The translations under genes and the position numbers were made by a program. Shown in pieces: positions 34,514-54,924 of a stretch of DNA of 64,000 bases. The DNA lies in assembly GCA_050015075.1 (NCBI GenBank), contig JBEKCB010000014.1, forward strand, positions 39,242 to 103,241, read 5' to 3'. Every line of letters starts with the position of its first letter. The stretch's first letter is position 1. Origin of the DNA: Candidatus Brocadiia bacterium. Lineage in GTDB: Bacteria > Planctomycetota > Brocadiia > CAIUPP01. Under the pieces are notes generated by a model. The model was given only the letters and a program-made list of their open reading frames with translations. It ran no database searches and was not told the origin of the DNA.

Positions 34514-34589
34514 GGGGGATTAGCTCAGTTGGGAGAGCGCTAGAATGGCATTCTAGAGGCCAGGGGTTCAACTCCCCTATCCTCCACCA
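34514..34589 (+). tRNA. tRNA-Ala (GGC)
   Basis: 76-nt cloverleaf; acceptor GGGGGAT/ATCCTCC with G3:U70, anticodon arm CTAGA-ATGGCAT-TCTAG, T-loop TTCAACT, encoded CCA. Confidence 0.97.
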
Positions 34590-36091
34590 ATCGACGTTCT
34601 GGCAAACTCGGAAGGGCCGGGTTTGCCAGAACTGTTTTCGGGCGTTCCAAAATACAACAGTACCTCCACGCTGTCCGCGTTCACGGTCACCTTCCGCAGC
34701 GCTGACCGCAGCAGCCGGCGCCGGCGCGGATGATCGCTTGACCCCAGGACCTTCTGTATCTCCGCGCCCAGCTCCTCGGCGTTTCGCTCCACGCCGGCTC
34801 GCGCTTCGGCGGCGCGCATCTCCTGGCTGATGACGGCGAGCCGGCGCTCGGCGTCCTCGCGCGTCGCGCGCTTCTTCGCCATCTCGGCCCGCAGGTCGGC
34901 GGCGTCGCCCGGGCCCCACTCTCCGTCAGCGGCCAGGGCCATGAGATTGTTCATGCGCTGCTGCGCGTTCGAGGCGGAGGCCTCGGCACTCCGCTTGTCG
35001 GCCGCCAGGCGTTTGAGGTCGGCAGCGGCCGTCTTCTTCTGAGCGGCCATGGCCGCGTGGAGAGATGACGGATCCGCGAGTCTCTCGGCAACCTTCTCGG
35101 CCATGAAGCGGTCAAGCTCCTGGGCATTGAAGGGCTTGCTCTTGCAGGTCCCGCCGCGGCGGTTGCCGGTGCAACCGTAATAGAAGTACCGCTTGCCCAT
35201 TTTGCCGCGTGCGGTCCACGTCGTCAGGTGCTTGCCGCAGATCCCGCAGAAGATCAGACCGTCGAGGAGGTACTCGTAATGCTCCTTGTGCGTTCGGCGC
35301 TGGCCGCCGGCGAGCGCGGCGTTCCGCTCGAGGATCGGCTGGACTCGGTCGTAGAGGCGCTGATCCACGATCGGCATGTGACTGCCGGCGAGTACTTCTC
35401 CGGCCCACTGCTGCTTACCGAGATAGATGGGGTTGCGGAGAATGCGGATCACAGTCGTGTGGCTGAGCGGGCGGCCTGACTCGCGCAGGTGCCGCACCAG
35501 GTCCGTGGCGCTCTTTCCGGAAGCGTAGAGACGGAAGAGATCGCTGACGATTGCGCGCGTGTCCGGGTTCGGCTCGAGGCCGCCGCCCTGCTTCTGCCGA
35601 TAGCCGAAGGGAATGCGACCGCCGCAGTATCGGCCCTTCCTGGCGGCGGACTGCATTGTCTCGCTCACACGCTCGGCGATCATCTCGCGCTCGAACTGGC
35701 CGAAGGAGGCGAGGAGGTTGCGGAGCAGCCTGCCGGCGGGAGTCGTGGTGTCAATTTCCTGAGTGACGGCGACGACGTCCACGCCGTGCGCTTCGGCTTC
35801 CTGGACGAGCTGGCAGAAGTCGGCGACGGAACGGCTGAGGCGGTCTATTTTCAGGGCGACCAGGACGTCGAACTTCCCGGCGCGGAGGTCGGCGAGCATG
35901 CGCTGGTAGGCGGGGCGCTGCGTGTTCTTGCCGCTCAGTCCCTCGTCACGATAGACGTCCACGACCTGCGCAGCGCGCGCTTTCGCCCATAATTGGCAGC
36001 GCTCTTCCTGTAAGTCGAGCGAGACGCCTTCTTCGGCCTGGCGCGTGGTGCTGACACGAAGATAGAGCGCGGCGCGGAGCGAGCGCCCCAT
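34577..36091 (-). CDS. Large serine recombinase (integrase)
   Basis: YLRVST catalytic Ser motif, DEGLSG, DRLSRS, recombinase domain NPIYLG, Zn ribbon CGICG...YYGC, coiled coil. Confidence 0.93.
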   Translation of the reverse strand: MGRSLRAALYLRVSTTRQAEEGVSLDLQEERCQLWAKARAAQVVDVYRDEGLSGKNTQRPAYQRMLADLRAGKFDVLVALKIDRLSRSVADFCQLVQEAEAHGVDVVAVTQEIDTTTPAGRLLRNLLASFGQFEREMIAERVSETMQSAARKGRYCGGRIPFGYRQKQGGGLEPNPDTRAIVSDLFRLYASGKSATDLVRHLRESGRPLSHTTVIRILRNPIYLGKQQWAGEVLAGSHMPIVDQRLYDRVQPILERNAALAGGQRRTHKEHYEYLLDGLIFCGICGKHLTTWTARGKMGKRYFYYGCTGNRRGGTCKSKPFNAQELDRFMAEKVAERLADPSSLHAAMAAQKKTAAADLKRLAADKRSAEASASNAQQRMNNLMALAADGEWGPGDAADLRAEMAKKRATREDAERRLAVISQEMRAAEARAGVERNAEELGAEIQKVLGSSDHPRRRRLLRSALRKVTVNADSVEVLLYFGTPENSSGKPGPSEFARTSIGGG

Positions 36092-36753
36092 TAGTAACCG
36101 CCTCTGGCGGGAACGCCCGTTTGCCCCGCTTGTATGAGGCCTAATTCGTTGGAACGCCATTCCCGGTAGACCCAAGCAGCGCGCCCGGCGTTTCCGTTTT
36201 TCACTGCCTCCTCCAGAACCATCGCGTAGGTGATGTTTGTCTTTGCTATGGAAGAATCAGGCGTTCTGCCCTTCAGCCATTCATTGAAGCCTGGCTTGGC
36301 GGCGATCTCCCGCCAGTCCGGGACCAGCTCGGTCAATCGCGCCTCGAAGGCCGCCCGCTGACGCGCGATCTCTGCTTCGCGGGCCAAGCGTTCCTTTTCT
36401 GCCTTCTGATCCGCGAGCGCTTTGTCTTCACGGGCCTTCTTCTCCTCCGGCGTGATCCACTCATCGCCCACTTTGATAAGTCCCTTTTGCGCCTGCGCGG
36501 TCTCAAAGGCAGTCTGCTCAGCGCGCGTCCGTAAACCCAAAGCCTTCCGCGTTTCATCCGAGAGGGAAGCCAATGGAATCCAGGCGCCTCCATCTGCACA
36601 ATTCACGAGCGCCTTATCGCCCTTGACCTTCAGGACCGTGACGTTTTTGAAGGCCTGCCCGTCCGTCGTCGTGACAATATCTACCGGATCCCGCGCGAGC
36701 ACGGCAACGGAGAGCGAGAACAGAAGAGCCATCGCAAGAGCGAGACGCCCCAT
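36091..36753 (-). CDS. Secreted hypothetical protein in the lysogenic operon
   Basis: Signal peptide MGRLALAMALLFSLSVAVLA; GGAGG RBS; lies between cI and int. Confidence 0.7.
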   Translation of the reverse strand: MGRLALAMALLFSLSVAVLARDPVDIVTTTDGQAFKNVTVLKVKGDKALVNCADGGAWIPLASLSDETRKALGLRTRAEQTAFETAQAQKGLIKVGDEWITPEEKKAREDKALADQKAEKERLAREAEIARQRAAFEARLTELVPDWREIAAKPGFNEWLKGRTPDSSIAKTNITYAMVLEEAVKNGNAGRAAWVYREWRSNELGLIQAGQTGVPARGGY

Positions 36754-36765
36754 GATATGCCTCCT

Positions 36766-37335
36766 TCAAAATTTCACGCCCCAGACGCGCGTCATTCGCT
36801 GAACCTCGTCCGCCGGCACTACGTCGGCATTGTGCGACGGGTTCACCGGCTGAAGTATAACCTGTCTGCCCTTGCGATGCACGCGCTTGAATGTGCGGGT
36901 TCCGTCCGTGAGTTCCACGATGGCCAAGTCGCCGTCGCGGACGGTATCCCCCTTTTCGACCAACACGATCTGGCCGTCCCGTGCGATCGGTTCCATGGAG
37001 TCGCCGCGCACACGGAAGCCGACGAGATTGTCAGGCTTCTTCTCGTGGTATGGCGCTTCGCCATCGGCAACGATCCAATGCTGGCCGCCGCCGGCGTTGA
37101 AGACCGGGAATCTGCCCGGATCGTGAACCTGCTCTTCTTCTCCGTGCCACGATGCGAGAGAATCTCCAGATAGCTTTGCGAGTCTTTCCAGTACGGCGCG
37201 GCCTGGCTTCGCGCTCCCGTGGAGGTACTGCGAGAGCGTCTGAATCTTCCATCCCATAGCCTCAGCGAGGCGCTTTTTGCCGCCGAAGTGAACTGCGAGC
37301 GCCGATAGCTTTTCCCGAAACGCCCCGTAATTCAA
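36766..37335 (-). CDS. CI/LexA-like repressor (XRE HTH plus S24 peptidase)
   Basis: HTH (KKRLAEAMGWKIQTLSQYLHG), Ala-Gly site in NAGG, VRGDSMEP Ser, TFKR Lys. Confidence 0.9.
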   Translation of the reverse strand: MNYGAFREKLSALAVHFGGKKRLAEAMGWKIQTLSQYLHGSAKPGRAVLERLAKLSGDSLASWHGEEEQVHDPGRFPVFNAGGGQHWIVADGEAPYHEKKPDNLVGFRVRGDSMEPIARDGQIVLVEKGDTVRDGDLAIVELTDGTRTFKRVHRKGRQVILQPVNPSHNADVVPADEVQRMTRVWGVKF

Positions 37336-38609: not shown

Positions 38610-39765
38610 GTCCGAGCAGACCGTTGTGTGTCCGGGGTGCGGGAAGTCCATTCCGCTGACTAAGGCGCTGACCTCGAACATCGAGGCCACGCTGCGCCGG
38701 CAGTTTGAGGCGCAGGCCTCCGACCGCGAGCGCGCGTTGAAACGCGATTACGCGGAGCAGCTCCAGGAGGCCCAGCAAGAGGCTCGCGCGAAAGCAAGAG
38801 AAGGCATCAACGAGGAGATGGCCACGCTGCGCGATCAGCTCATGCAGAGAGACGAGCAGATCGCGGAGACGCGCCGCAAGGAGATGGACCTCATCCAGCG
38901 CGAGCGGTCCCTGACGGACCGTTTGGCCGAGGTTGACCTGGAGATCGCTCGCCGCCTGGACACCGAGCGGTCCTCGATCCGGGAAGAAGTCGCGCGGAAG
39001 ATGGAAGACGAGCGCCAACTGAAGGACCTCGAAAAGGACAAGCAGCTTTCCGACCTGAAGATGCAGGTGGACGTCCTGAAGCGGAAGCTCGAGCAGGGTT
39101 CGCAGCAGACCCAGGGCGAAGCGGTCGAGCTTCAGCTCGAGGAGCTGCTCGCCGGCGCGTTCCCGTTTGACCAGATCGAGCCGGTCGGGAAGGGCATCAA
39201 GGGCGCCGATGTGCTCCAGCGTGTCAACACGCAGCAGGGGCAGTACTGCGGCATGATCGCGTGGGAGTTCAAGAACACGCGGAACTGGACGGATGGGTGG
39301 ATCGCCAAGCTCAAGGACGACCAGCGCGCGGCAAAGGCCGAGATCGGGGTTCTCGCCACGGCCGTCCTGCCGAAGGGCATCACGCACATCGGCCAGGTCG
39401 AGGGCGTTTGGGTGACGGACTTCGCGTCGCTGATCGGACTGGCCAGCGCGCTCCGGACGGGACTTGTCCAGGTGGCGCTTGGCCGGCTCGCCGCGGTGGG
39501 GAAGAACGACAAGATGGACATGCTCTACAACTACCTGACCGGGACGGAGTTCAAGCAGCGGGTCGAGGCGATGATCGAGTCCTTCATCCTCATGCGTGAC
39601 GACCTCGAGCAGGAGAAGCGCGCGGCCGAGCGGGTATGGGCCAAACGCGAGAAGCAGATCCAGCGCGTGGTCGGCGGGGTGGCCGGAATGTACGGCGACA
39701 TGCAGGGGATCGTCGGAGTCAGTCTGCCGAGGATCGAACGGCTCGAACTGCCGGCGCCTCAGTGA
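38602..39765 (+). CDS. DUF2130 family coiled-coil protein with nuclease-like C-terminal domain
   Basis: CPGC N-terminus, coiled coil, GSQQTQGE..EL.LE..L...FP.D, EFKNT..W..GWI.KLK.DQR. Confidence 0.8.
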   Translation: MAESEQTVVCPGCGKSIPLTKALTSNIEATLRRQFEAQASDRERALKRDYAEQLQEAQQEARAKAREGINEEMATLRDQLMQRDEQIAETRRKEMDLIQRERSLTDRLAEVDLEIARRLDTERSSIREEVARKMEDERQLKDLEKDKQLSDLKMQVDVLKRKLEQGSQQTQGEAVELQLEELLAGAFPFDQIEPVGKGIKGADVLQRVNTQQGQYCGMIAWEFKNTRNWTDGWIAKLKDDQRAAKAEIGVLATAVLPKGITHIGQVEGVWVTDFASLIGLASALRTGLVQVALGRLAAVGKNDKMDMLYNYLTGTEFKQRVEAMIESFILMRDDLEQEKRAAERVWAKREKQIQRVVGGVAGMYGDMQGIVGVSLPRIERLELPAPQ

Positions 39766-39779
39766 AAGGAAAGCGAGAG

Positions 39780-40745
39780 ATGAAAGTTCACAAACGCAAG
39801 CCGAAGGCGACCGCGCCCAAGGCTGTTGTGCTTCCGACGAAGCCCGGAATGTACGACGGGATTCCCTTCACCGATTACTGCCTGCGCCTCAAGGGCGCGA
39901 ACTCCACGATGCTGCGGCAGTTCCTCCACGAGACGCCCTCGCGCGTTTACTATCTCATGACGCACCCGGAGAAGGCGGAGGACTCCGTGGCGCTTCGCCT
40001 GGGACACGCCACGCATGCGGCGGTCCTGGAGCCAGAGCGGTTCGAGGAGGAATACGCGAGGATTCCGAAGTTCGACCTGCGGACGAACGAGGGTAAAGCC
40101 GGCGCTTTGAAGTGGGCCGAGGACCATCCGACCCAGGCGCGGCTGCTTCCGGACAAATACGACGAGACGCTGGCTATGCGCGACGCCCTCCTGGCCCACC
40201 CTCTTGCCTCAAAGCTCCTCGGCGCGCCTGGCCGCACCGAAGTCACCGTCCTCTTCAGCATCCCGGTCTGGAAGAACCGGGAGACGGGTGAGATCGCCTG
40301 CCAGCCGGAATCGCCGGGCAAAGGATTCGTCCGCGCCGGCGAGGTCGCGTGCAAGGCCCGGATCGACAAGCTGATCTCGTGGGAGAACTGGTCAACGGTC
40401 CTGGACCTCAAGACGGACCGCGATGCCTCGTTGGCCGGCTTCGGGAAGGCCTGCGAGAAATTCTCCTACCACGCCCAAGCCGCGATGTACCTGGACGCGC
40501 TGGACATTCTCGCGCCGCGCAAGCGCCGGTTCATTCACGTCGTGGTGGACAAGCGACCGCCGCACGACGTGGCGGTGCGCGAGCTGGACGAGCCGGAGCT
40601 GCGCGAGGGCCGGGCGGCGTATCGCTTTGCGCTCGCGACCTACATCCAGTGCAAGAAGTCCGGCGTGTGGCCGGCCTATTTCGACGGCATCGAGCCGCAG
40701 GAAATGCGCCGGAGCGCTTTCCGGTTCACCGATCCGACTCAGTAA
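39780..40745 (+). CDS. RecE/exonuclease VIII-like PD-(D/E)XK nuclease (DUF3799-like)
   Basis: G.A.HAAVLEP..F, CKARID, DLKT, YH.QAAMY. Confidence 0.85.
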   Translation: MKVHKRKPKATAPKAVVLPTKPGMYDGIPFTDYCLRLKGANSTMLRQFLHETPSRVYYLMTHPEKAEDSVALRLGHATHAAVLEPERFEEEYARIPKFDLRTNEGKAGALKWAEDHPTQARLLPDKYDETLAMRDALLAHPLASKLLGAPGRTEVTVLFSIPVWKNRETGEIACQPESPGKGFVRAGEVACKARIDKLISWENWSTVLDLKTDRDASLAGFGKACEKFSYHAQAAMYLDALDILAPRKRRFIHVVVDKRPPHDVAVRELDEPELREGRAAYRFALATYIQCKKSGVWPAYFDGIEPQEMRRSAFRFTDPTQ

Positions 40746-40755
40746 GGAGCCGACG

Positions 40756-42213
40756 ATGGGCCTTGAACGATTCTTCACCGCGAAGCTGACGCCGCTCGGC
40801 AAGATCAAGATCGGCGGCAAGGGCGAGGAAAAGGTCAGCGCCAAGGGCAAGACCTACCGGCAGCCGCTGAAGTACGACTACTTCGTCGTCACGACGATGC
40901 AGAAAGACGCGGCCGGCAATTTCAAGCCGGACGTGAAGCTGATGAAGGAACTGACCGAGGAGTACGGCGACGAGGACGGCAAGCTGCGGCAGATCCCGAT
41001 CCGGCTGCTCTCGAATGATCCGGAGGTCGTCATGCAGACGGCCTTCGTCGCGTACCAGGGCAAGGTCTGCATCGCGCGGAGCGATCGGCAGACGGTGACC
41101 TGGTTCAATGACCTGAAGACCGGCGCGCGCCTGGCCGAGCCGAAGGTCGAGCCGTGGGATGAGAAGCTGCGCGAGTTGAAGTCCCAGGAGGGCGGCGCAT
41201 TCTTCAAGGAGCACAGCGTCTTCAATTGCGTGATCTCGGCGCACGAGGCGAAATGGGGCGGCGTCTATGAGTTCCGCACGACGGGCGAGATCAGCGGGCA
41301 GCAGCTCTACAGCGGGATGCTGGAGACGCTGCGACTGACCTATGGCGTGCTGATCGGGATGCCGCTCTGGATGGTGGTCGAGCCGAAACAGGTGACGCCG
41401 CAGGGCCGCGCGACGACGGTCTACGCGGTGAAGCTCGAGCTGCGCGCGCCCTCGATGGAGGACATCGAACGGATGGCGCTGACGCGGATGCAGTACGCGC
41501 TGGCGCACAAGGACCAGATCCAGATCATCGAGACGAAGTACAAGGCGCTCATGGCGCCTCCAGGAACGGAATCGGCGAAGGACGCCGCCGATATCAATCT
41601 GGAATTCTCGCCGGAGACGGCGGACGCGAAGGTCGAGAAGCCGCCGGAAGGCGAGGACGAATTGCTGAAGCCGGCCGCTCCGCTGGCGCCGATGGATCGC
41701 CCTAAAGAGCGAGAAGCCGCCGGGGGAAGCTCCAAAGAAGGAGCGCGCACTACCCCGGCGGCCCCGGGAGACGATCTGCTCGAGGGCTCGAAGCCGCCGA
41801 AGGGCCCCAAACCGCCGCCGGCGATGATCGGAAAAGATCAGATCGAGGAACTCAAGGCGCTGGTCCCTCAGATCATGACAAAGGCCGACTGGCTGAAAGA
41901 GCTTGCGAAGCGCAAGGTCGAGCGCGTCAGTCAACTGACGGCCGCGGACGCGCTGACGATGATCCTCGACTATCGGAAGCAGCGCGACGAGAAGAACAGG
42001 CGCGGGCCGAAGGAAGAGAAGTTCAGCCGCGATGCCGCGATCGGCGCGGTCAAAGAGGCCCTGGCGGACGATACGATCAGCACCCTCCGATTTGCCCGGG
42101 CCTGCGCTTCGCTGGAGATCAAGTACGACGACAAGCACGCGGACGCCTGGCAGGAAGTTGGGGACGGCAAGTTGAAGGAACTCGTTCACGAGCTGCTGCT
42201 GGATCAGCGGTAG
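40756..42213 (+). CDS. Gp3-like protein (phiC31/phiBT1 recombination directionality factor family), probable annealing/recombination partner
   Basis: N-terminal GKIKIG.KG...K.YRQP.K.DYF.V and GGVYEFRTTG resemble the Gp3-like family; follows the exonuclease; long Pro/Lys-rich tail. Confidence 0.6.
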   Translation: MGLERFFTAKLTPLGKIKIGGKGEEKVSAKGKTYRQPLKYDYFVVTTMQKDAAGNFKPDVKLMKELTEEYGDEDGKLRQIPIRLLSNDPEVVMQTAFVAYQGKVCIARSDRQTVTWFNDLKTGARLAEPKVEPWDEKLRELKSQEGGAFFKEHSVFNCVISAHEAKWGGVYEFRTTGEISGQQLYSGMLETLRLTYGVLIGMPLWMVVEPKQVTPQGRATTVYAVKLELRAPSMEDIERMALTRMQYALAHKDQIQIIETKYKALMAPPGTESAKDAADINLEFSPETADAKVEKPPEGEDELLKPAAPLAPMDRPKEREAAGGSSKEGARTTPAAPGDDLLEGSKPPKGPKPPPAMIGKDQIEELKALVPQIMTKADWLKELAKRKVERVSQLTAADALTMILDYRKQRDEKNRRGPKEEKFSRDAAIGAVKEALADDTISTLRFARACASLEIKYDDKHADAWQEVGDGKLKELVHELLLDQR

Positions 42214-42241
42214 ACCATTTTCCTGACGTCACGAAAAAGGT
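42214..42241. promoter_or_regulatory. 28-bp imperfect palindrome (operator-like)
   Basis: ACCATTTTCCTGAC|GTCACGAAAAAGGT, 12 of 14 positions symmetric. Confidence 0.45.
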
Positions 42242-42258
42242 TCTTGGGAGGAAGGCGC

Positions 42259-42612
42259 ATGGTGGAAATCAAGCCGGATCTGGACATGTGGGCTTACGTC
42301 GAGATGTTCGGGCACATTTCTTTTGCGGGGCATGTGACATCAAAACCTGTCGGGTCGTTTGCTTTTCTCCAGGTGGACGTCGCGGATGGCAACGGCGGCC
42401 TGGCATTCACGCGATTCGTCGGGCCATCGGCGATCTACGCCATGACGCCGACCGACGAAAAGACCTGTCAGCGGATCATGGCGGATCGCTCCATGAATCC
42501 GCTGCCATACATCCCGGCGCTGCCGGCACCTCAGCGGGAAAATTTCGTCGGCCGGGCCGAGAGGGCGGATCGGAGCGACTTCGATCCAGAGGAAGTCGAA
42601 ACTGCGCCGTAA
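42259..42612 (+). CDS. Conserved hypothetical phage protein
   Basis: WAYVEMFGH..FAG.V motif; GGAGG RBS. Confidence 0.7.
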   Translation: MVEIKPDLDMWAYVEMFGHISFAGHVTSKPVGSFAFLQVDVADGNGGLAFTRFVGPSAIYAMTPTDEKTCQRIMADRSMNPLPYIPALPAPQRENFVGRAERADRSDFDPEEVETAP

Positions 42613-42693
42613 GCTGTTCCGCGCGGCATTGGACAGCGGGATTCCTCCCGCGTGCCGCTGCGGACGGTATAAGCGGCGAAAAAGGAGGGTGTC

Positions 42694-43113
42694 GTGCACT
42701 ATAGAAATGGGCGCGAAGTGAGAAACGGCGACACGGTTGTCAGTCTTGGCTATGACGGCGGGAAAATCGTGGCAGTCGGAATCCTTCACAACGCGACGAC
42801 TGGCAATGACTACTGCAATGGCAGCATCGCGCCGATCAGCACCGGCGTCGTGGTCGCGTGCATGTGCGATTGCCTGCACATGGACGATGTGGCCGAGATG
42901 CTGAAGGAAAAAGGTCTCGACAAGCGACCGAGCGGAAAAGAGAATTCGCGTGACGACAACCTACGACTTCGCGGACGAGCGTGCCGGTCTGGAATACCTC
43001 CACAATGTCCGGTCGCGCGGCTTGGCAATTCCCCTCGAGGAGCTTCTGCGGGCCGGGGCGTGGGAGTTCTCGTCGTCAAGCGACCAGGGCGACAAGGCGA
43101 CGACGCGGTATGA
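42694..43113 (+). CDS. Hypothetical phage protein (MHYRNGRE... type); C-terminal extension doubtful
   Basis: AGGAGG RBS with GTG start; Cys-rich core. Confidence 0.6.
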   Translation: MHYRNGREVRNGDTVVSLGYDGGKIVAVGILHNATTGNDYCNGSIAPISTGVVVACMCDCLHMDDVAEMLKEKGLDKRPSGKENSRDDNLRLRGRACRSGIPPQCPVARLGNSPRGASAGRGVGVLVVKRPGRQGDDAV

Positions 43114-43129
43114 GATCGTGAAGAAGTAA
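42950..43129 (+). CDS. 59-aa hypothetical protein, absent from the ORF track
   Basis: GTG..TAA, MTTTYDFADERAGLEYLHNVRSRG...; overlaps the tail of 42694-43113. Confidence 0.4.
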   Translation: MTTTYDFADERAGLEYLHNVRSRGLAIPLEELLRAGAWEFSSSSDQGDKATTRYEIVKK

Positions 43130-43175
43130 ACGCTCCGGCGCGTGCCGGACGGGTTTCTTTGGAAAGGAGGCGTGT

Positions 43176-43664
43176 ATGGCGAAGGCGAAGAAGCCGGCGA
43201 AGAAAGCGCCGGGCGGTCCGCCGAAGCTGGCGGCCGAGATCAAGGTGGAGGCCCGCGATTTCACGCATGCGGCCGCGAGCCTCGGATGCAAGTGCGCCCT
43301 GCTCAAGGGCTGCACGAAGGCAATCCTCAAGCGCATCGAGAAGGTGAAGGAGGTTCTCGATGCGAACATCGCCAAGGGCGGACTGGAGTCTCCGCGCGCC
43401 GGCATGCTGTTCGGGACCCTGGAGCAGTCGCGCCAGGAATCCCAGAAGGCGGAACTCGAGCGGATTGACACGGCGGTCAGCCTCGCTAACTTCGTGCTCG
43501 AGAGCGTCGGCGCGGCGGACCTGAAGGCGTTCCGCGCGGGCTGCCGCAAGGTCTCCGAGGGCGTTGTGAAGAAGGCGGATGGCCGCGAGCCGGCGAAGGC
43601 GGCTGAGCCGGATGGCAAGAGCCAGGCGGCCGGCGACAGCCAGAGAGCGCAGGCGGCAGGATAG
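43176..43664 (+). CDS. Basic hypothetical phage protein
   Basis: AAGGAGG RBS; Lys/Ala-rich N-terminus. Confidence 0.7.
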   Translation: MAKAKKPAKKAPGGPPKLAAEIKVEARDFTHAAASLGCKCALLKGCTKAILKRIEKVKEVLDANIAKGGLESPRAGMLFGTLEQSRQESQKAELERIDTAVSLANFVLESVGAADLKAFRAGCRKVSEGVVKKADGREPAKAAEPDGKSQAAGDSQRAQAAG

Positions 43665-44536
43665 TGAGCATGGGCCTGAAAGGATTCGACGGAGTGAATG
43701 AGGTCGGATGCTGCGCGCCGGGGACGGCCGCTCGGCCCCGTCAACAATGCGGCCACAAGACTAAGTGCTGCCGAATATCGGCAAGCGGCCTAAACGGTCG
43801 CCCTGAACCCGGCGAGGAAGCCCGCGTAGCCGGCAGTAGGGACCAGACGCAGGCGACGGCCCGGAGAGACGGGCTGGCTTGCCGGTTGAAAGCTGCTCCG
43901 AAGGAATTCCGGCTGGCCGGGCGTCGTGGCCAGCCACGCGCAAAAGGGCTGAAATCCCCTGGAGCGAAACCGGCTGGTGGAGGCAAGGCTTGCCCGACGA
44001 GCCTCAATCATCGGGACACGCGCGTAGACGCACCGGCTGAAGCACGACCGGACGGGAGTTCGATTCTCCCCAGGTCCACTCATCTTAGCATCCTGGCCTT
44101 TGACCTGGCCTCTGTCTGCGGATGGGCCTCTCTCAAGGAAGGCCGTCTCAGTTCGGGCGCCTGGGAGAATCCGGCGCGGTACGTGGACTCTCCCGGGCGC
44201 TTCTTTACCTGTTTCAGGACGTGGCTCGCGGACATGAAGCAGTGGCACGAACCGCAGCTCGTGGCCTACGAGTTCACCCCGCGCGGCGCGAGCACGAATG
44301 CGATGCTGATCCATTTCGGGCTTGTGACCAGGCTGGAGGAGTGGGCGTACCGAATGGAGGCGCGCACGGCGTTCATCTATCCGAGCCAACTGAAGAAGCT
44401 GGTGACCGGACGCGGCGACGCGGAGAAGGAAGAGGTGCGCGATGTCATGCGGAAGCGATGGAAGATTCCGAAGCTGACGAGCCTGGACGAGAGTGACGCG
44501 GTTGCGGTCTTGACCTGGGCGCTGAGGAAAGCATGA
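43664..44536 (+). CDS. RuvC-like Holliday junction resolvase with a 140-codon in-frame insertion containing the tmRNA
   Basis: ILAFDL (D), AYE (E), LKK.VTG.G.A.K, DESDA motifs from about 44090; GTG start overlaps the upstream TAG; no canonical start codon after the tmRNA. Confidence 0.75.
   Translation: MSMGLKGFDGVNEVGCCAPGTAARPRQQCGHKTKCCRISASGLNGRPEPGEEARVAGSRDQTQATARRDGLACRLKAAPKEFRLAGRRGQPRAKGLKSPGAKPAGGGKACPTSLNHRDTRVDAPAEARPDGSSILPRSTHLSILAFDLASVCGWASLKEGRLSSGAWENPARYVDSPGRFFTCFRTWLADMKQWHEPQLVAYEFTPRGASTNAMLIHFGLVTRLEEWAYRMEARTAFIYPSQLKKLVTGRGDAEKEEVRDVMRKRWKIPKLTSLDESDAVAVLTWALRKA
43672..44078 (+). ncRNA. ssrA: Prophage-encoded tmRNA, tag (A)AAEYRQAA
   Basis: 5' GGGCCTG..GGATTCGAC pairs with 3' CAGGTCC-A (G3:U); T arm GGGAG-TTCGATT-CTCCC; pseudoknot PK1 CGGGG/CCCCG plus GGCCGC/GCGGCC; resume context TAAGT-GCT at 43767; stop TAA 43791-43793; CCA not encoded. 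Confidence 0.93.
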
Positions 44537-45432
44537 ACTCGAACGGCCGAAGGCTGCCGTGCGCGTTTCCGTACATCGGCGGGAAGTGGAGGCTGGCGCC
44601 AAGGATCATCGCCCTGATGCCGCCGCATGAAGTCTACGTGGAAGTGTTCGGCGGGTCCGGCGCGGTGCTTTTCGCCAAGGAGCGCTCGAAGGTCGAGGTC
44701 CTCAACGACTGCGATGGCGAGATCGTGAACTTCTTCCGCGTCCTGCAGGATCCGGGCAAGACTGACCGGTTGATGCAGCGGCTCTTTGTGACGCCCTATT
44801 CCCGGAAGGTCTATGCGGAGATGTGCGAGCGGCCGCTGCCGAAGGACGATGTGCTGCGCGCCTGGGTGTTGTGGGCGCGTGCGCGGATGTGCTTTGGCGG
44901 ATACCGGCCGGCGGAGAACGGGTTTCGTTTCGCGGGCAACACGCGCGGTCGCTGGCGCCGATCGCTCGGCTCGCGGCACCAGGGCGGCGGCGATGCGGCG
45001 ACGCTCCACAACAAGATTGACGAGCTGGACCGGTTCACAGAACGCCTGCGCGGCGTCTACATCGAGGACAAGGATTTCCCCTACATCCTCGACTGGTGGG
45101 ATTCGCCCAGGACGGTCTTCTACCTCGATCCGCCGTACTTCGGGACCGAAGGGTACTACGACGGCGGGATGTTTCCGGAGTGGCGGCATTACGAACTGGC
45201 GGATCACCTGGCGCGCATCAAGGGCAAGGCCGTCGTCAGCTACTACCCGCACCCGAAGCTGGCGGAGCTGTACCCGGAAGACCGCTGGCATCGCGCGACC
45301 TTCCGCGTGCGGAAGAACCAGCAGAAGACGGTTCCCGGCACGGAGGCGAAGTACGAGACGGAGATGCTGCTGATGAACTACGAACCGACGGACGGGGCCC
45401 GGGCCCCGGTTGAGAAAGGCGCAGGCACATGA
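44533..45432 (+). CDS. DNA adenine methyltransferase (Dam/D12 class)
   Basis: YIGGK, YVEVFGGSGAV, LND, YLDPPY. Confidence 0.93.
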   Translation: MNSNGRRLPCAFPYIGGKWRLAPRIIALMPPHEVYVEVFGGSGAVLFAKERSKVEVLNDCDGEIVNFFRVLQDPGKTDRLMQRLFVTPYSRKVYAEMCERPLPKDDVLRAWVLWARARMCFGGYRPAENGFRFAGNTRGRWRRSLGSRHQGGGDAATLHNKIDELDRFTERLRGVYIEDKDFPYILDWWDSPRTVFYLDPPYFGTEGYYDGGMFPEWRHYELADHLARIKGKAVVSYYPHPKLAELYPEDRWHRATFRVRKNQQKTVPGTEAKYETEMLLMNYEPTDGARAPVEKGAGT

Positions 45433-46805
45433 AACGGATCGAAGTCGCAGACCTGTTTTGCGGGGCCGGCGGGATGAGCGGCGGCGTGATCGAGGCCTGC
45501 CGGCAGTTGGGCTTTCCGCTCGGGTTGCTGGCGATCAATCACTGGGCCGTAGCGATCAGCACGCACACGCTGAACCATCCGCTCGCGCGCCAGCTCTGCT
45601 GGCCCGTCGAGGCGGTCAGCCCCAAGCGCAGTATTCCCGGCGGCCGGCTCGACCTGCTCTGCGCCTCGCCGGAGTGCACGCATCACAGCATCGCGCGCGG
45701 CGGGATGCCCGTCAGCGACCAGCGGCGCGCGGGCGCGTGGGAAGTCTGCCGGTGGGCGACCGAGTTGCGGATTGACGACATCCTGGTGGAGAACGTGCGC
45801 GAGTTCGAGACCTGGGGCCCGGTCGGCGCGAACCGCCGGCCGATCGCCGCGCGCAAGGGCGAGACGTTCCGGGCATGGGTGAAGGCGCTGGAGTCGCTGA
45901 ACTACCGCGTGGAGTGGCGCGTGCTGAACTGCGCGGACTTCGGCGACCCGACGTCCCGGAAGCGGCTGTTCATCCGCGCCAGGCGCGGGAACGGGCACAT
46001 CGAGTGGCCGGCGGCGACGCACGGCGCGGGCCTGCAGCCGTGGCACACGGCGCGCGAGATCATTGACTGGACGATCAAGGGGCGCAGCATCTTCAACCGT
46101 GAGCGGCCGCTGAAGGCGCGGACCATCGAGCGGATCGCCGCAGGCCTGCGGAAGTTCGGCGGCGCGGCTGCCGAGCCGTTCCTGGTCATGCTGTACGGGA
46201 CGAACGAGACGCGAAGCGTGGATCGTCCTGCGCCGACGGTGACGGCGAACGGGCAGCACATCGGGCTTTGCGAGCCGTTCTTGATGAACATAACGCACGC
46301 GAACGATCATGCTTCGCGGACCCATTCCGTTGACGGCCCGCTTCCGACGGTTACCTGCGCGCATCGTGGCGAGTTCGGTCTGATCGAGCCGTTCCTCGTT
46401 CACGCTGATTACTCCGGTCCTGCGCCGTTCATCCTGCCGCACCTGGGATGGACGGGAAAGAACGTCGCGCAGAGCGTGGATAAACCGATGCCGACCGTGA
46501 TCGCTTCGCATGGGGTCGGGCATCTTGTTCAGCCGTTCCTGGTCAAGTACTTCGGGACCGGGAAGACCGCGCCGATCGGCGAGCCGCTGCACACCGTGAC
46601 GACGAAGGACCGCTTCGGGCTGGTCGAGCCGGTGTACCTGGACATCCTCTTCCGGATGCTCGAGCCGCATGAGCTGGCGGCGGCGATGGGATTCCCGAAG
46701 GATTACCAGTTCCTCGGGACGAAGAGCGACGTGGTGAAGCAGATCGGGAACGCGGTGCCGCATCACACGGCCGAGGCGCTGGCGGAAGCGGCGCTCGCGG
46801 CGTAG
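45429..46805 (+). CDS. DNA cytosine-5 methyltransferase
   Basis: DLFCGAGG, ASPEC, ENV, R.RLF, QIGNAV. Confidence 0.93.
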   Translation: MKRIEVADLFCGAGGMSGGVIEACRQLGFPLGLLAINHWAVAISTHTLNHPLARQLCWPVEAVSPKRSIPGGRLDLLCASPECTHHSIARGGMPVSDQRRAGAWEVCRWATELRIDDILVENVREFETWGPVGANRRPIAARKGETFRAWVKALESLNYRVEWRVLNCADFGDPTSRKRLFIRARRGNGHIEWPAATHGAGLQPWHTAREIIDWTIKGRSIFNRERPLKARTIERIAAGLRKFGGAAAEPFLVMLYGTNETRSVDRPAPTVTANGQHIGLCEPFLMNITHANDHASRTHSVDGPLPTVTCAHRGEFGLIEPFLVHADYSGPAPFILPHLGWTGKNVAQSVDKPMPTVIASHGVGHLVQPFLVKYFGTGKTAPIGEPLHTVTTKDRFGLVEPVYLDILFRMLEPHELAAAMGFPKDYQFLGTKSDVVKQIGNAVPHHTAEALAEAALAA

Positions 46806-52158: not shown

Positions 52159-52769
52159 GGCGACGCTGCAAAAAGCGACAATCTGTAGGTACTCCTGGGC
52201 GAGACTTCGGGCTTGAAGGTGTGCGTGGGCGGCGGCAAGATTCACAGACTTTGTTTGCCACAAAACGGTCGCTGAACGTACAGAAAATCGCGGCGCTCCT
52301 GGTGAATGGAAAAACGTCGTCAGCGATCATGTCGTGGGCCGTCAGTGACCGCGGCCTCGGTCTGTCGGAAGCGCAGGCCGGTCGTCTCATGCGTCAGGCG
52401 AAGAAACAGATTTCGCGCGACTCAAAATGGAGCCAGGAGGAAGAGCTCGGTCTGGCAGTCAGTCGTCTCCGCATGCTCTACGCGAAGGCGTTGTCAGCCG
52501 GTGACACCGCTGGCGCTTTTTCGATTCAGCGAGAGCTGAATTCACTGACGGGTCTTCGCGGGCGCGATGGCGATGGCAGCGACGGAAAACCGCCGCCCCA
52601 CGACGATGGCGCAAGCCGAGAGTTGGCCGCGGCTCGAGCGCATCTTGCCGCCCTGAACCTCGGAGGCCCGGACGTTCCGGTGAGTGAGTTGGCGCGGTTG
52701 GCCGTCCAACGGATCGTGGAGTTGATGACCAGTGCGAATGAAGAAGGCAAGAAGTCCGGCAAACTATGA
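52155..52769 (+). CDS. Putative small terminase subunit; true start probably about 52270-52310
   Basis: Directly upstream of the large terminase; helical HTH-like content. Confidence 0.5.
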   Translation: MRRRCKKRQSVGTPGRDFGLEGVRGRRQDSQTLFATKRSLNVQKIAALLVNGKTSSAIMSWAVSDRGLGLSEAQAGRLMRQAKKQISRDSKWSQEEELGLAVSRLRMLYAKALSAGDTAGAFSIQRELNSLTGLRGRDGDGSDGKPPPHDDGASRELAAARAHLAALNLGGPDVPVSELARLAVQRIVELMTSANEEGKKSGKL

Positions 52770-54924
52770 GCGTCACAGGGCGGACGCCCGGGCGCGCATG
52801 GCCGCCAAGTCGGAGGCGGGCCGCGATATCGGCGAGATGCCGGCGGTCGTAAATCCGATGCGCAAAGCGCGCTGCGGCGCTTTGCTCCAGGCGTTCATCG
52901 AGAGCTACCTCCTGAAGATGTTCACGGTCCGCGGAGACCACTGGCCCTGGTCGGCAACACACCTGGAGGTCATGCGTCGCATCGAGGCCGTCGTGCGCTA
53001 CGGCGATATGTTCGGCGTGGCCATGCCGCGCGGCGGCGGCAAGACCTCTCTCATCAAGGCGGGAACGTTGTGGGCGAGCCTCTTCGGCTTCAGGCGATGG
53101 GTCTGCGTTCTCGCCGCCACGGCGCCGAAGTCGGGGGCGATCATTCAGGATTTGCAGACCATCGTGGAAACCAATCCACTGCTCGCGGCGGATTTCCCGG
53201 AGGTCTGTTATCCCGTTCGCAAGCTGGAACGCATCGCTGGCCGGCAGCGCGGGCAGACATTCAGGCGGGAGCCGACGCGCATGGCCTGGAGCGTGAATGA
53301 AATCGTCCTCCCGAACATTCCCGGAAGCCGGTGCGCCGGCAGCATGGTCACGGCGACCGGCCTCGAGGGTTCCGGCATCCGCGGCCAGGTGCGCGTGCTG
53401 GCCGATGGCACGCAGCTCCGGCCCGACCTGGTGTTCATAGACGATCCGCAGACGGACGAGAGCGCGCATTCGGCGTTTCAGACCGACGATCGGCTGAAGT
53501 TGCTGGGCGGCGCGGTCCTCGAAATGGGGCCGCCTGGCGTCCCGCTCGCCGCTCTGATGGCCGTGACGGTGATCGAGAACGGCGATGTCGGCGATACGGT
53601 CCTGAAGGACCCGCGATGGAACGGAATCCGTTCGCCGATGCTCGTCAAGTTTCCCGTCCACATGAGCGCGACGCCCGCCGACATTCCTCACGCGGACCAC
53701 TGGGACCGCTATGCCGACCTGCTGCGAAGCGGGCGAACTGATGACGCGACGGAGTTCTATGCGGCGCATCGGTGCCTTCCGGAGTGCGAGGGGATCCTCG
53801 ACCGGCCGCGCCCTTGCCTGCCCTGCCCGATTCGCGCCGACTGCATGGACGCGGACGCCATGGTCTCCTGGCAGCAGCGGAAATATCCCGCCGACCTTTC
53901 GCCGGTTCAGCACGCCATGGACCGGCACATTCGCAACCCGATCCTCTTCGCCGCCGAGATGCAGCAACAGCCGATCTCGGCACAAATGGCCGGCGCAAGG
54001 ATCACGCCGGCGCAGGTGATCCAGCGGGTCAGCGGCCTTCCGATGTGCCACGTGCCTGCGGATGCGACGGTCATCACCGCCGGAGTCGACGTCCACGACG
54101 AGCTTCTCTACTGGGTCGTGTGCGCCTGGGAAGACGACTTCACCGGCCAGGTCATTCAGTACGGCACGCTCCCCGAGCAGCCGGTGCGCTGGTTCCTGCA
54201 GGCCAGTCCGCCACGCCCGCTCTCGCGCGAGTTCCCCGGCCAGGACAAGGACGGCGTGATTCAGTCCGGCCTCGAGCGCCTGTGCGGCGTCATGCTCAAG
54301 CATGAGTTCGAGAAACACGCCGGCGGATCCGTGGCTTCGATGTCCATCGAGCAGATGCTCGTGGACAGCGGCTACAAACCGACGCTCGTCTACAACGTGC
54401 GCCGGAAGCTCGCCAGCCCGATCATGCAGGCCTCGAAGGGCATGGCCCTGCGCGCAACGAACAAGCCGATCGCCTCCTTCCAGCGTAAGCGCGGATGGAA
54501 GTTCGGCGACGACTGGTACGTCCCCAGCGTCCGCGGCACGCGCGAGTACCCGCACGTGTGCATTGACACCAACGCCTGGAAGAGCTTCGTCCATCGCGCA
54601 TTGTCCGTCGCTCCGGGCACGCGCGGCGCCTTGACGCTCTACGGGACGCCGGTGACTGCCGGCGACCATGAAGCGTTCGCGGAACAGGTCGCCGCCTCCG
54701 AGTACTTCACCGAGGTCTTCGCTCACGGCCGGGTCGTCAACGAGTACAAGCAGATGCCGCATCGGCCCGACAACCACTGGTGGGACTGCCTGGTCCTGTG
54801 CGCGGTCGGCGCCTCGATGCGCGGCTGCAAGCCGCCGGTCCAGGCGAAAGCGGCTCAGCGGTCATCCGGCGGTCCGGCGAAGCGCCAGGTGAAGAGCCTT
54901 GCAGAAATGGCAGGAGCAACATGA
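52732..54924 (+). CDS. Large terminase subunit (GpA-like)
   Basis: AMPRGGGKT Walker A, FIDDPQT Walker B, GVDVH, VDSGY, NHWWDC nuclease motifs. Confidence 0.9.
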   Translation: MRMKKARSPANYERHRADARARMAAKSEAGRDIGEMPAVVNPMRKARCGALLQAFIESYLLKMFTVRGDHWPWSATHLEVMRRIEAVVRYGDMFGVAMPRGGGKTSLIKAGTLWASLFGFRRWVCVLAATAPKSGAIIQDLQTIVETNPLLAADFPEVCYPVRKLERIAGRQRGQTFRREPTRMAWSVNEIVLPNIPGSRCAGSMVTATGLEGSGIRGQVRVLADGTQLRPDLVFIDDPQTDESAHSAFQTDDRLKLLGGAVLEMGPPGVPLAALMAVTVIENGDVGDTVLKDPRWNGIRSPMLVKFPVHMSATPADIPHADHWDRYADLLRSGRTDDATEFYAAHRCLPECEGILDRPRPCLPCPIRADCMDADAMVSWQQRKYPADLSPVQHAMDRHIRNPILFAAEMQQQPISAQMAGARITPAQVIQRVSGLPMCHVPADATVITAGVDVHDELLYWVVCAWEDDFTGQVIQYGTLPEQPVRWFLQASPPRPLSREFPGQDKDGVIQSGLERLCGVMLKHEFEKHAGGSVASMSIEQMLVDSGYKPTLVYNVRRKLASPIMQASKGMALRATNKPIASFQRKRGWKFGDDWYVPSVRGTREYPHVCIDTNAWKSFVHRALSVAPGTRGALTLYGTPVTAGDHEAFAEQVAASEYFTEVFAHGRVVNEYKQMPHRPDNHWWDCLVLCAVGASMRGCKPPVQAKAAQRSSGGPAKRQVKSLAEMAGAT

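What the first reader, a model, noticed from the sequence alone, without database searches (positions are those of the whole stretch)
43664..44536. tmRNA embedded in frame inside a phage RuvC-like resolvase gene, flanked by an AGCAT direct repeat
Seen: the ORF starts at GTG 43664, overlapping the upstream TAG, and runs without a stop through the whole 407-nt tmRNA into an intact RuvC-like domain. AGCAT occurs at 43667-43671 and 44087-44091, exactly 420 bp (140 codons) apart. Deleting the segment between the copies gives GTG AGC ATC CTG GCC TTT GAC CTG = MSILAFDL, a typical RuvC N-terminus. No canonical start codon or SD lies between the tmRNA 3' end and the first catalytic Asp. Established: tmRNA matures by RNase P 5' cleavage plus 3' trimming. 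Inference: one RNA is either mRNA for an N-extended resolvase or a tmRNA precursor, and maturation would cut the resolvase coding region off from its start, so the two products would be mutually exclusive. Alternatively the tmRNA is a recent insertion with a target-site duplication, or is removed at the RNA or DNA level. I know of no described system like this.
Basis: partly seen in the sequence, partly recalled or inferred. Interest (0 to 1): 0.92.

Follow-up and report, generated by a model that had tools for sequence, protein, structure and literature searches.

The report
tmRNA gene inserted inside phage resolvase gene
A prophage in a peat bacterium carries a complete tmRNA gene inserted just after the start of its RuvC-like resolvase gene, in frame and without stops, so the enzyme can apparently only be made by translating through the RNA gene.

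Summary
Rfam finds a full-length tmRNA at 43672-44081 (66.8 bits, cut-off 47). It lies 9 kb inside a temperate prophage. The ORF from GTG 43664 to 44536 runs through it into a RuvC domain with the RuvC fold.

Relatives support an insertion. RuvC-like proteins start about 6 codons before the catalytic Asp: 68 of 146 homologs start exactly there, and 11 of 12 genomic relatives start within 3-10 codons. The window has CTT at that position, and the nearest canonical start is 72 codons upstream. GTG 43664 overlaps the upstream stop, as in relatives. Removing 420 nt puts it exactly 6 codons before the Asp.

The insert is a multiple of three and stop-free. Only 2-4% of shuffles are, and none of 64 other tmRNAs has an open frame. 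It shows no coding signature.

Best reading, confidence 0.5: RuvC is made as a 290-aa read-through protein from unprocessed transcripts, and processed transcripts give tmRNA. A freshly killed RuvC is the main rival. Only one phage lineage shows this, and no expression data settle it.

The parts
43176..43664 (+). Upstream phage gene (162 aa, no family). Its TAG stop at 43662-43664 overlaps GTG 43664.
   Evidence: ORF list. GC3 is 0.87, a coding signature. No Pfam or PHROG hit.
43658..43661 (+). AGGA, Shine-Dalgarno-like. It lies 2 nt before GTG 43664 and 8 nt before ATG 43670.
   Evidence: Read from the sequence. Function is inferred.
43664..43666 (+). GTG, inferred original start codon of the RuvC gene, coupled to the upstream stop (TAGTG).
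   Evidence: After removal of 420 nt it lies 6 codons before the catalytic Asp, the modal distance in relatives. Relatives L018, L019 and L021 also overlap the upstream stop.
43667..43671 (+). Left copy of AGCAT (ancestral RuvC codon 2 plus 2 nt).
43670..43672 (+). ATG formed at the junction (AT of AGCAT plus G1 of the tmRNA), in frame with RuvC. An alternative start for the read-through protein.
   Evidence: Function is inferred.
43672..44081 (+). tmRNA gene. Acceptor strands 43672-43678 and 44071-44077 with a G3:U pair, discriminator A at 44078, and no encoded CCA. PK1 is intact and the T-arm is GGGAGTTCGATTCTCCC.
   Evidence: Rfam 66.8 bits, full model. ARAGORN. The MFE fold keeps the acceptor stem and T-arm. 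Contigs from RNA libraries lie at 43694-43853 (X21) and 43691-43902 (X23).
43767..43793 (+). Tag reading frame GCU...UAA, coding AAEYRQAA*. It lies in frame +1 relative to RuvC.
   Evidence: ARAGORN, read against the sequence.
44079..44086 (+). 8-nt trailer (CTCATCTT) between the discriminator and the right AGCAT. Its last three bases, CTT (44084-44086), occupy the position of the family's start codon.
44087..44091 (+). Right copy of AGCAT (RuvC codon 2 plus 2 nt).
44084..44536 (+). RuvC-like resolvase domain (150 aa) with D7, E63, D135 and D138. The coding signature begins here.
   Evidence: Pfam PF02075. PHROG 159. Profile against PDB RuvC 1hjr, E 1.6e-11. AF2 pLDDT 93-98. Foldseek top hits are RuvC, TM 0.80-0.84. 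GC3 0.81.
43664..44536 (+). Whole open frame (290 aa): 140 codons read from the insert plus the RuvC domain.
   Evidence: The extension has flat GC (0.69/0.64/0.64) and no predicted structure (pLDDT 35-56).

Best explanation
A complete, divergent tmRNA gene with an 8-nt trailer (415 nt, plus a 5-nt AGCAT duplication or microhomology, making 420 nt) was inserted between codons 2 and 3 of a temperate phage's RuvC-like Holliday-junction resolvase gene. The resolvase kept its original start, GTG 43664, translationally coupled to the upstream gene, but that start now lies 420 nt upstream of the domain.

The insert is a multiple of three and has no stop in that frame. Ribosomes starting at GTG 43664 or at the junction-made ATG 43670 can therefore read through the tmRNA sequence of an unprocessed transcript. 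The product would be a 288-290-aa resolvase with an unstructured 140-aa leader. Transcripts that fold and are cut by RNase P at 43671/43672 and trimmed at the 3' end give tmRNA, leaving a RuvC fragment with no start codon. On this reading the two products compete for each transcript.

Shown: the tmRNA, the open frame, the missing start, the family's N-terminus and the rarity of such an open frame. Inferred: the insertion event, the read-through translation and the competition.
For: Insertion:
- The two closest homologs (64-66% identical) begin MNVLAFDL, where the window reads L(CTT)-S-I-L-A-F-D-L.
- Of 146 family members whose alignment reaches the N-terminus, 68 start exactly at that position and 125 start within 10 residues.
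- In 12 genomic relatives the nearest canonical start lies 3-10 codons before the catalytic Asp in 11, and exactly 6 codons before it in 6. In the window the distances are 72, 136, 144 and 146 codons, and 146 minus 140 is 6.
- GTG 43664 overlaps the upstream stop, as in L018, L019 and L021.
- AGCAT follows the GTG and recurs at RuvC codon 2. The word's density is 8e-4 per position.
- None of 19 relatives' RuvC loci holds a tmRNA or tRNA.

Read-through:
- The insert has 0 stops in the RuvC frame against 7 and 5 in the others. It is open in 2.1% and 4.1% of shuffles.
- None of 8 other tmRNAs and none of 56 viral-contig tmRNAs has any open frame.
- The length is 3n.
- The RuvC domain looks intact: catalytic residues are conserved, GC3 is 0.81, the AF2 model is confident and RuvC structures are the top fold hits.
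- No terminator-like site follows the tmRNA.

tmRNA likely active:
- Full-length Rfam match above the cut-off.
- G3:U pair, T-arm, PK1 and a tag frame with a stop.
- The host has one SmpB.
- Contigs from RNA libraries of two studies lie inside the tmRNA (a weak hint only).
Against: - Only one phage lineage shows the arrangement. All copies found are at least 99.95% identical, so conservation of the open frame could not be tested.
- The 140 codons show no coding signature (GC3 0.64 against 0.80-0.88 in 7 genes). The extension itself is therefore not under selection as protein.
- The 290-aa form is not among called proteins. The databases hold a 100-aa call, and a near-length search with the 290-aa query found nothing.
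- Natural N-terminal extensions in the family look like miscalled starts, so tolerance of a 140-aa leader is unproven.
- The host has its own RuvC (165.6 bits), so a dead phage copy might be tolerated.
- The tmRNA scores lowest of the 11 standard viral tmRNAs compared (66.8 against 77-139 bits). It encodes no CCA, and its tag ends QAA.
- One low-depth variant in run X12 changes the invariant Gly25 of RuvC. It may be an error.
Confidence: 0.5

Rival explanations
1. The same insertion occurred, but it cut RuvC off from translation. The resolvase is a recently dead gene that has not yet decayed, and the open in-frame insert is luck.
For: Only a single lineage is known and no diverged copies exist. 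The host has a canonical RuvC that might substitute. The extension has no coding signature. X12 carries a G25S variant at an invariant residue. Gene callers did not call the long ORF.
Against: An insert that is both 3n and stop-free is expected in roughly 1% of cases: one third times 2-4%. None of 64 other tmRNAs has any open frame. The RuvC domain has no lesion and keeps its GC3 and catalytic residues.
Confidence: 0.27
2. RuvC starts on its own at a non-canonical or internal codon. Candidates are ATC 44090, CTG 44093 and ATT 44063 next to the domain, or TTG 43886 and GTG 43694 inside the tmRNA. This might happen on the 3' fragment left by tmRNA processing.
For: These codons exist in frame. 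One relative, L032, also lacks a canonical start within 26 codons of the Asp, so odd starts may occur in this family.
Against: No purine-rich Shine-Dalgarno-like sequence precedes 44090 or 44093; the sequence there is TCCACTCATCTTAGC. As I recall, leaderless translation needs a 5' AUG, and none is there. A start at ATC or CTG would not explain why the whole upstream 420 nt is stop-free.
Confidence: 0.12
3. There was no insertion. The tmRNA is an ordinary intergenic gene between the upstream gene and RuvC, RuvC lost its ATG by point mutation, and AGCAT and the GTG are chance.
For: A 5-nt repeat alone is weak. Similarity between the two flanks beyond AGCAT is not significant (1574 of 5000 shuffles score as well).
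Against: This needs three coincidences: a start codon fused to the upstream stop, followed by the same 5 nt as RuvC codon 2 (about 8e-4 per position for AGCAT alone), at a distance that restores exactly the modal 6 codons. No intergenic space is left on either side of the tmRNA. Going from ATG to CTT needs two changes.
Confidence: 0.05
4. The tmRNA segment is removed to restore MSILAFDL, either from the RNA (splicing-like) or from the DNA (excision between the AGCAT copies).
For: Exact removal of 420 nt between the repeats would restore a typical RuvC gene.
Against: At E up to 1, Rfam finds only the tmRNA in 42000-46000 and no intron family. RNase P and 3' trimming ends would not join in frame (read from the sequence). 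No recombinase is encoded next to it.
Confidence: 0.04

Closest known systems
Phage- and prophage-encoded tmRNA genes
   Same: A tmRNA gene is carried by a phage alongside the host's own ssrA and smpB. I found 56 tmRNAs by ARAGORN in 74 IMG/VR loci, for example L034, where a tRNA-Asp follows 1 nt later. PMC11915505 (passages read) mentions a mycobacteriophage DS6A tmRNA form.
   Different: In the others the gene stands free, and none of the 56 has an open frame. No RuvC-like gene lies in those 74 loci. Here the gene sits inside a coding sequence, in frame. Its sequence has no close relative beyond the roughly 31-66 nt at the 3' end.
tRNA-mRNA co-transcripts processed by RNase P (E. coli tRNA-tufB operon, T4 tRNA cluster; recalled, not from a call)
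   Same: A structured RNA and an mRNA share one transcript, and nuclease processing separates them.
   Different: There the mRNA keeps its own ribosome-binding site and start codon downstream of the tRNA. Here processing would remove the only canonical start.
Moron or mosaic insertions in phage genomes by illegitimate recombination at microhomology (recalled concept)
   Same: A small self-contained gene is inserted at a gene boundary of a phage operon, with a few bases of identity at the joint.
   Different: The joint lies 8 nt inside the downstream gene rather than between genes, so the recipient gene now depends on the insert being translatable.
Self-splicing introns and inteins in phage DNA-metabolism genes
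   Same: An insertion in a coding sequence that leaves the gene usable. One RuvC-family homolog (P0127, 288 aa) does carry an internal insert with a LAGLIDADG-like motif (the motif name is recalled).
   Different: There is no intron family match and no intein. The insert is a tmRNA with no known way of removing itself.
[quoted passage not shown]
   Same: Both involve a tmRNA and a prophage. [quoted passage not shown]
   Different: This tmRNA is not the host ssrA, which is at G000:C6 (167 bits, tag AETHYSLAA). It is not at a prophage end: the integrase and tRNA-Ala lie 9 kb away. No integrase is adjacent.

Membership tests
tmRNA (Rfam RF00023) | Full-length covariance-model match above the gathering score | tested here: met
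   66.8 bits against 47, model positions 1-374 of 374. This is the lowest of the 11 standard viral tmRNAs compared (77-139 bits). The host tmRNA scores 167.
tmRNA (Rfam RF00023) | tRNA-Ala-like domain: 7-bp acceptor stem with a G3:U pair, T-arm and discriminator A | tested here: met
   GGGCCUG pairs with CAGGUCC with G3:U. The T-arm is GGGAG-UUCGAUU-CUCCC and A 44078 is the discriminator. The identity rule is recalled.
tmRNA (Rfam RF00023) | Tag reading frame with a resume codon and a stop, downstream of pseudoknot 1 | tested here: met
   GCU 43767 to UAA 43793, coding AAEYRQAA*. The PK1 stems CGGGG/CCCCG and GGCCGC/GCGGCC are seen in the Rfam alignment.
tmRNA (Rfam RF00023) | Accumulates as a processed stable RNA and is charged and used with SmpB | not testable with these tools
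   Only contigs from two RNA libraries lie inside the gene and the host has an smpB. No RNA ends and no charging data.
RuvC Holliday-junction resolvase (Pfam PF02075) | Profile match above the curated cut-off | tested here: met
   25.3 bits against 22.2 for the 150-aa part. PHROG 159, E 1.9e-14. The family profile matches PDB RuvC 1hjr at E 1.6e-11.
RuvC Holliday-junction resolvase (Pfam PF02075) | RNase H-like fold with the acidic catalytic residues | tested here: met
   AF2 pLDDT is 93-98 over residues 141-290. The Foldseek top hits are RuvC 1hjr and 7xhj at TM 0.80-0.84. D7 and D138 are invariant and E63 nearly so in 32 sequences; D135 is invariant in the 3 closest.
RuvC Holliday-junction resolvase (Pfam PF02075) | Own start codon a few codons before the first catalytic Asp | tested here: not met
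   The nearest canonical start is 72 codons upstream. In 11 of 12 relatives it is 3-10 codons upstream.
Transposable element with target-site duplication | Flanking direct repeat plus a transposase or terminal repeats, and more than one copy | tested here: inconclusive
   The 5-nt repeat is present. The insert encodes no transposase. The only inverted ends are the acceptor stem itself. The own genome holds no second copy of this tmRNA. The prophage proteins I scanned include no reverse transcriptase.
Group I/II intron or other self-removing insert | Intron RNA family match, or a spliced or empty form in reads | tested here: not met
   No other Rfam match at E up to 1 in 42000-46000.

The most novel reading that the evidence does not exclude
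The same 410 nucleotides serve both as a working tmRNA gene and as translated coding sequence. The phage makes its resolvase only by ribosomes reading through the tmRNA precursor, closely coupled to the upstream gene. Each transcript is therefore committed either to tmRNA (folding and RNase P cleavage) or to resolvase (translation). Selection has kept the RNA gene free of stops in that frame.
Probability: 0.35. Interest if true: 0.8.

Novelty: new variant of a known kind. Interest (0 to 1): 0.6.

Why it matters
Structured-RNA genes and protein-coding genes are normally kept apart. This is a natural case where a tmRNA landed inside an enzyme gene and where the enzyme's only canonical start now lies upstream of the RNA gene.

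If the read-through protein is real, two things would follow. A folded, processed RNA gene could double as an open reading frame. RNA processing and translation could also compete for one transcript, acting as a simple switch between ribosome-rescue RNA and a recombination enzyme.

If the resolvase is simply dead, the case is still useful. It is a dated snapshot of how phage genomes acquire small genes by imprecise insertion, and a warning for annotation: pipelines called a truncated 100-aa 'RuvC' here. It also adds a very divergent prophage tmRNA with an unusual tag (AAEYRQAA) from an uncultivated peat bacterium.

Tried and rejected
Search for relatives with or without the insert
- RuvC peptide or profile scans of viral contigs, metagenome contigs and genome contigs returned only the same phage or nothing.
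- The upstream protein returned only the same UViG. The D12 methylase gave one distant contig, L047, with no RuvC and no tmRNA.
- blastn of 43100-44600 against the phage collection gave no match.
- A family-level genome search covered 4 genomes and found only one weak hit.
- A near-length search with the 290-aa ORF found nothing.
- So no empty allele and no diverged filled allele was found. Codon-level conservation could not be tested.

Origin of the tmRNA
- blastn against 401 genomes of the phylum matched only the 3' end, 29-82 nt long.
- The 56 viral tmRNAs match over 31-36 nt only.
- No donor was identified.

Flanks
- Similarity between the flanks beyond AGCAT is not significant (1574 of 5000 shuffles). 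I dropped the idea that the tmRNA 5' end and the RuvC 5' end are homologous.

Reads
- No joint was seen in the 4 runs laid (X11, X12, X21, X23).
- The RNA-library contigs cover only parts of the tmRNA and 44462-44661. Uncovered parts say nothing, contigs cannot show RNA ends, and RNA libraries can contain DNA.
- Of the 24 runs listed, only these 4 were laid. The shares of the other 20 are not evidence.

Variant continuation
- The variant continuation after 44079 in X12 was not found in viral contigs, in the own genome with up to 3 mismatches or in genome contigs.

Promoters and terminators
- The scan found one promoter-like site at 42917-42945, none next to the tmRNA, and no terminator after it. 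These consensus scans may not fit this organism.

Literature
- Four searches and passages of PMC11915505 turned up no description of a tmRNA inside a coding sequence. The other papers were seen only as listings and abstract starts. Supplements were not opened.

Structure
- The low confidence of the 140-aa extension is partly expected, because the alignment has no depth there.

- The look-up of encoding contigs is marked closed and I did not call it. The DNA around homologs P0001 and P0002 therefore could not be read.
Full report
WHAT IS THERE

The window is G000:C14:39242-103241 of a 4.6-Mb, 66-contig genome. Bases from about 34.5 kb to beyond 61 kb are a temperate prophage. Its genes, in order, are:
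- tRNA-Ala at 34514-34589, next to a large serine integrase at 34577-36175 on the minus strand (PHROG 95, E 1e-121);
- a CI-like repressor with HTH and peptidase S24 domains at 36766-37335 on the minus strand;
- a DUF2130 protein;
- a RecE-like exonuclease at 39636-40742;
- a Gp3-like recombination directionality factor within 40423-42210;
- the region in question;
- a D12 adenine methylase (44533-45432) and a C5 cytosine methylase (45429-46802);
- a HerA-like ATPase, a radical-SAM-like protein and a DUF5131 protein;
- large terminase (52732-54921), portal (55660-57468), a protease-capsid fusion (57628-60240) and a head decoration protein.

So the finding lies in the early recombination module, 9 kb inside the prophage and not at an attachment site.

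Rfam places a full-length tmRNA at 43672-44081 (66.8 bits, gathering score 47, E 4.6e-25). The sequence shows:
- a 7-bp acceptor stem with a G3:U pair;
- a canonical T-arm;
- both stems of pseudoknot 1;
- a tag frame from GCU 43767 to UAA 43793 coding AAEYRQAA.

CCA is not encoded; CTC follows the discriminator. The host has its own ssrA elsewhere (G000:C6, 167 bits, tag AETHYSLAA) and one smpB. This is therefore a second, phage-borne tmRNA.

The tmRNA is very divergent. It has no match in the phage collection. Only its 3' end matches in 13 of 400 other genomes of the phylum and in the viral tmRNAs. It scores lowest of the 11 standard viral tmRNAs compared, the other ten reaching 77-139 bits.

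THE RESOLVASE HAS NO START OF ITS OWN

The frame from GTG 43664 to 44536 is open for 290 aa. Only the last 150 aa are RuvC:
- Pfam 25.3 bits against a cut-off of 22.2, and PHROG 159;
- a 32-sequence family profile hits E. coli RuvC 1hjr at E 1.6e-11, with residues 3-143 aligned to 3-146;
- the AlphaFold2 model has pLDDT 93-98 over residues 141-290 and 35-56 with no secondary structure over 1-140;
- the best fold matches are RuvC structures at TM 0.80-0.84;
- D7 and D138 are invariant and E63 nearly so.

Relatives fix where the protein should begin.
- The two closest homologs (64-66% identical) begin MNVLAFDL, aligned with the window's L-S-I-L-A-F-D-L.
- An exhaustive HMMER search gave 1146 hits at E up to 0.001. 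Together with the three proteins, the best 150 made 152 stored proteins, which I realigned. In 146 the alignment reaches the query's first five residues. Of these, 68 start at exactly the window's position 44084 and 125 start within 10 residues.
- The 15 with longer N-termini mostly carry an internal Met or Val just before the motif, so they look like miscalled starts.
- A profile search of 401 genomes of the phylum gave hits in 18, G000 included. Twelve of these loci have a match that reaches the N-terminus. I left out seven loci (L020, L022, L023, L025, L026, L027, L030) because their matches begin at query residue 12 or later.
- In those 12, the nearest canonical in-frame start lies 3-10 codons before the catalytic Asp in 11, exactly 6 codons before it in 6, and 27 codons before it in one (L032).

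In the window the family's start position holds CTT. The canonical in-frame starts lie 72, 136, 144 and 146 codons before the Asp.

WHY THIS IS AN INSERTION

- GTG 43664 overlaps the TAG of the upstream gene, which is clearly coding (GC3 0.87). The RuvC genes of relatives L018, L019 and L021 overlap their upstream stops in the same way.
- The GTG is followed by AGCAT, the same five bases that form RuvC codon 2 and the start of codon 3 at 44087. AGCAT occurs 52 times in 64 kb.
- Taking out 420 nt puts the GTG 6 codons before the Asp, which is the modal distance, and gives M-S-I-L-A-F-D-L. That is a typical family N-terminus; MSILALDP occurs in P0021.
- No space is left between the upstream stop, the tmRNA and the RuvC domain.
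- None of the 19 relatives' RuvC loci, each with 1.5-kb flanks, holds a tmRNA or tRNA.

The inserted piece begins at tmRNA position +1 and ends 8 nt after the discriminator. I cannot tell whether AGCAT is a target-site duplication or the microhomology of an illegitimate joint. The insert encodes no transposase. The prophage proteins I scanned include no reverse transcriptase. Similarity between the flanks beyond AGCAT is not significant.

IS THE OPEN FRAME MEANINGFUL?

- The 420 nt have 0 stops in the RuvC frame and 7 and 5 in the other two frames.
- The frame is open in 2.1% of 20,000 mononucleotide shuffles and in 207 of 5000 dinucleotide shuffles. With the 1-in-3 chance of a length divisible by three, that is about 1%.
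- As an empirical control, none of 8 other tmRNAs has any open frame. These are the host tmRNA, one from a large viral contig, and six from the phylum with GC 0.63-0.69. The minimum is 2 stops per frame.
- None of 56 tmRNAs that ARAGORN found in 74 viral loci has an open frame either. Most of those are AT-richer.
- The 140 codons have no coding signature. GC at codon positions 1/2/3 is 0.69/0.64/0.64, against GC3 of 0.80-0.88 and GC2 of 0.45-0.49 in seven neighbouring genes, the RuvC domain included.

So the stretch is an RNA gene that happens to be readable, or has been kept readable. It is not an evolved protein segment. The case was flagged because the frame is open, which inflates the surprise. 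The missing RuvC start, however, is an independent observation.

HOW IT MOST LIKELY WORKS

No terminator-like site follows the tmRNA, and none lies between the hairpin at 43134-43149 and RuvC. The upstream gene, the tmRNA and RuvC are therefore probably one transcript (inferred).

Ribosomes finishing the upstream gene can restart at GTG 43664. They could also start at ATG 43670, which the junction itself created and which has AGGA 8 nt upstream. They would then read through to give a 288-290-aa resolvase.

A transcript that is not being translated can fold. The acceptor stem pairs 43672-43678 with 44071-44077. It can then be cut by RNase P, which leaves the upstream gene with its stop codon and RuvC with no start. 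I hold it likely but unshown, at confidence 0.5 for read-through, within about 0.85 for the insertion itself.

The rivals, with my confidence:
- a freshly inactivated RuvC, tolerated because the host has its own RuvC: 0.27;
- a non-canonical or internal start: 0.12;
- chance adjacency with no insertion: 0.05;
- removal of the insert at the RNA or DNA level: 0.04.

EVIDENCE FROM SEQUENCING RUNS

The stretch is held by many peat metagenome runs. I laid only four.
- X11, which is not flagged as a possible source, has a 685-nt contig across both junctions (43534-44218) with no difference.
- Two metatranscriptome libraries from different studies each have a contig inside the tmRNA (X21 at 43694-43853, X23 at 43691-43902, no differences). 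X21 also has one across the RuvC-methylase boundary (44462-44661).
- These are contigs from RNA libraries and do not prove transcription or show RNA ends. I count them only as a weak hint that the tmRNA accumulates.
- X12 holds a 100-nt, depth-2 contig that matches 44050-44079 and then continues differently. The continuation has a purine-rich GAGGAG, then AGCATCCT (the same eight bases as window 44087-44094), then ATG AGC.
- It could be a sister allele in which the gene behind the tmRNA has its own ribosome-binding site and ATG. It could also be an unrelated tmRNA locus that shares the 3' 30-mer; contig L034 shares exactly that 30-mer.
- I could not recover more of it.

COMPARISON WITH WHAT IS KNOWN, AND VERDICT

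Three things here are known kinds: phage-borne tmRNAs, tRNA-mRNA co-transcripts, and small-gene insertions in phage mosaics. A tmRNA lying in frame inside a coding sequence, with the host gene's only canonical start upstream of it, is something I did not find described. That rests on literature searches and passages of PMC11915505; supplements were not seen. I also found no second example in the 74 viral tmRNA loci or the 19 RuvC loci examined.

I rate it a new variant of a known kind. It is real as a sequence feature and well explained as an insertion. Its functional reading is attractive but untested and rests on a single phage lineage. Interest 0.6.

Noticed in passing
window 44050-44079 and beyond (run X12, record 11): A 100-nt, depth-2 DNA contig shares the last 30 nt of the tmRNA and then diverges. 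The new sequence has a GAGGAG Shine-Dalgarno-like motif, the 8-mer AGCATCCT (also at window 44087-44094) and ATG AGC. It may be a sister allele with an independent start for the downstream gene, or an unrelated tmRNA locus.
   Followed up: partly
L034:5272-5748 (-), IMG/VR contig of 164.5 kb: A large viral contig carries a standard tmRNA (tag DADFEQAAA, 108.8 bits) followed 1 nt later by a tRNA-Asp. Its last 30 nt are identical to the window's tmRNA, and the rest is unrelated.
   Followed up: partly
window 43670-43672: The left junction creates an ATG (AT of AGCAT plus G1 of the tmRNA) in frame with RuvC, with AGGA 8 nt upstream. That spacing is better than for GTG 43664, which has only 2 nt.
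   Followed up: no
protein P0127 (288 aa, RuvC-family homolog): This RuvC-like protein is split by an internal insert of about 130 aa carrying a LAGLIDADG-like motif (motif name recalled). It may be an intein or homing-endonuclease insertion in the same gene family.
   Followed up: no
L032 (G294:C586) and L017 (G249:C98): Two related RuvC-like genes of other genomes in the phylum have long open frames upstream and no convincing canonical start near the motif. In L032 the nearest is a GTG 27 codons before the Asp. In L017 there is only a TTG inside the motif. Neither locus holds a tmRNA or tRNA.
   Followed up: partly
window 43517-44079: ARAGORN sets the tmRNA 5' end 155 nt too far upstream, inside the upstream gene. 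Rfam's 43672 fits the conserved 5' sequence.
   Followed up: yes
window 44234-44536: Public protein collections hold only a truncated 100-aa 'RuvC' starting at ATG 44234 (P0003). It lacks the first catalytic Asp, which is an annotation artefact of the missing start.
   Followed up: yes
window 34514-36175 and 40423-42210: The large serine integrase ORF overlaps the 3' end of tRNA-Ala by 13 nt. A Gp3-like recombination directionality factor domain lies in a 596-aa ORF whose 5' part overlaps the exonuclease gene, so its true start is probably further downstream.
   Followed up: no
window 44156 (run X12): A G>A variant in a depth-3.8 contig would change the invariant Gly25 of RuvC to Ser. It may be a sequencing error or a sign of relaxed constraint.
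   Followed up: no
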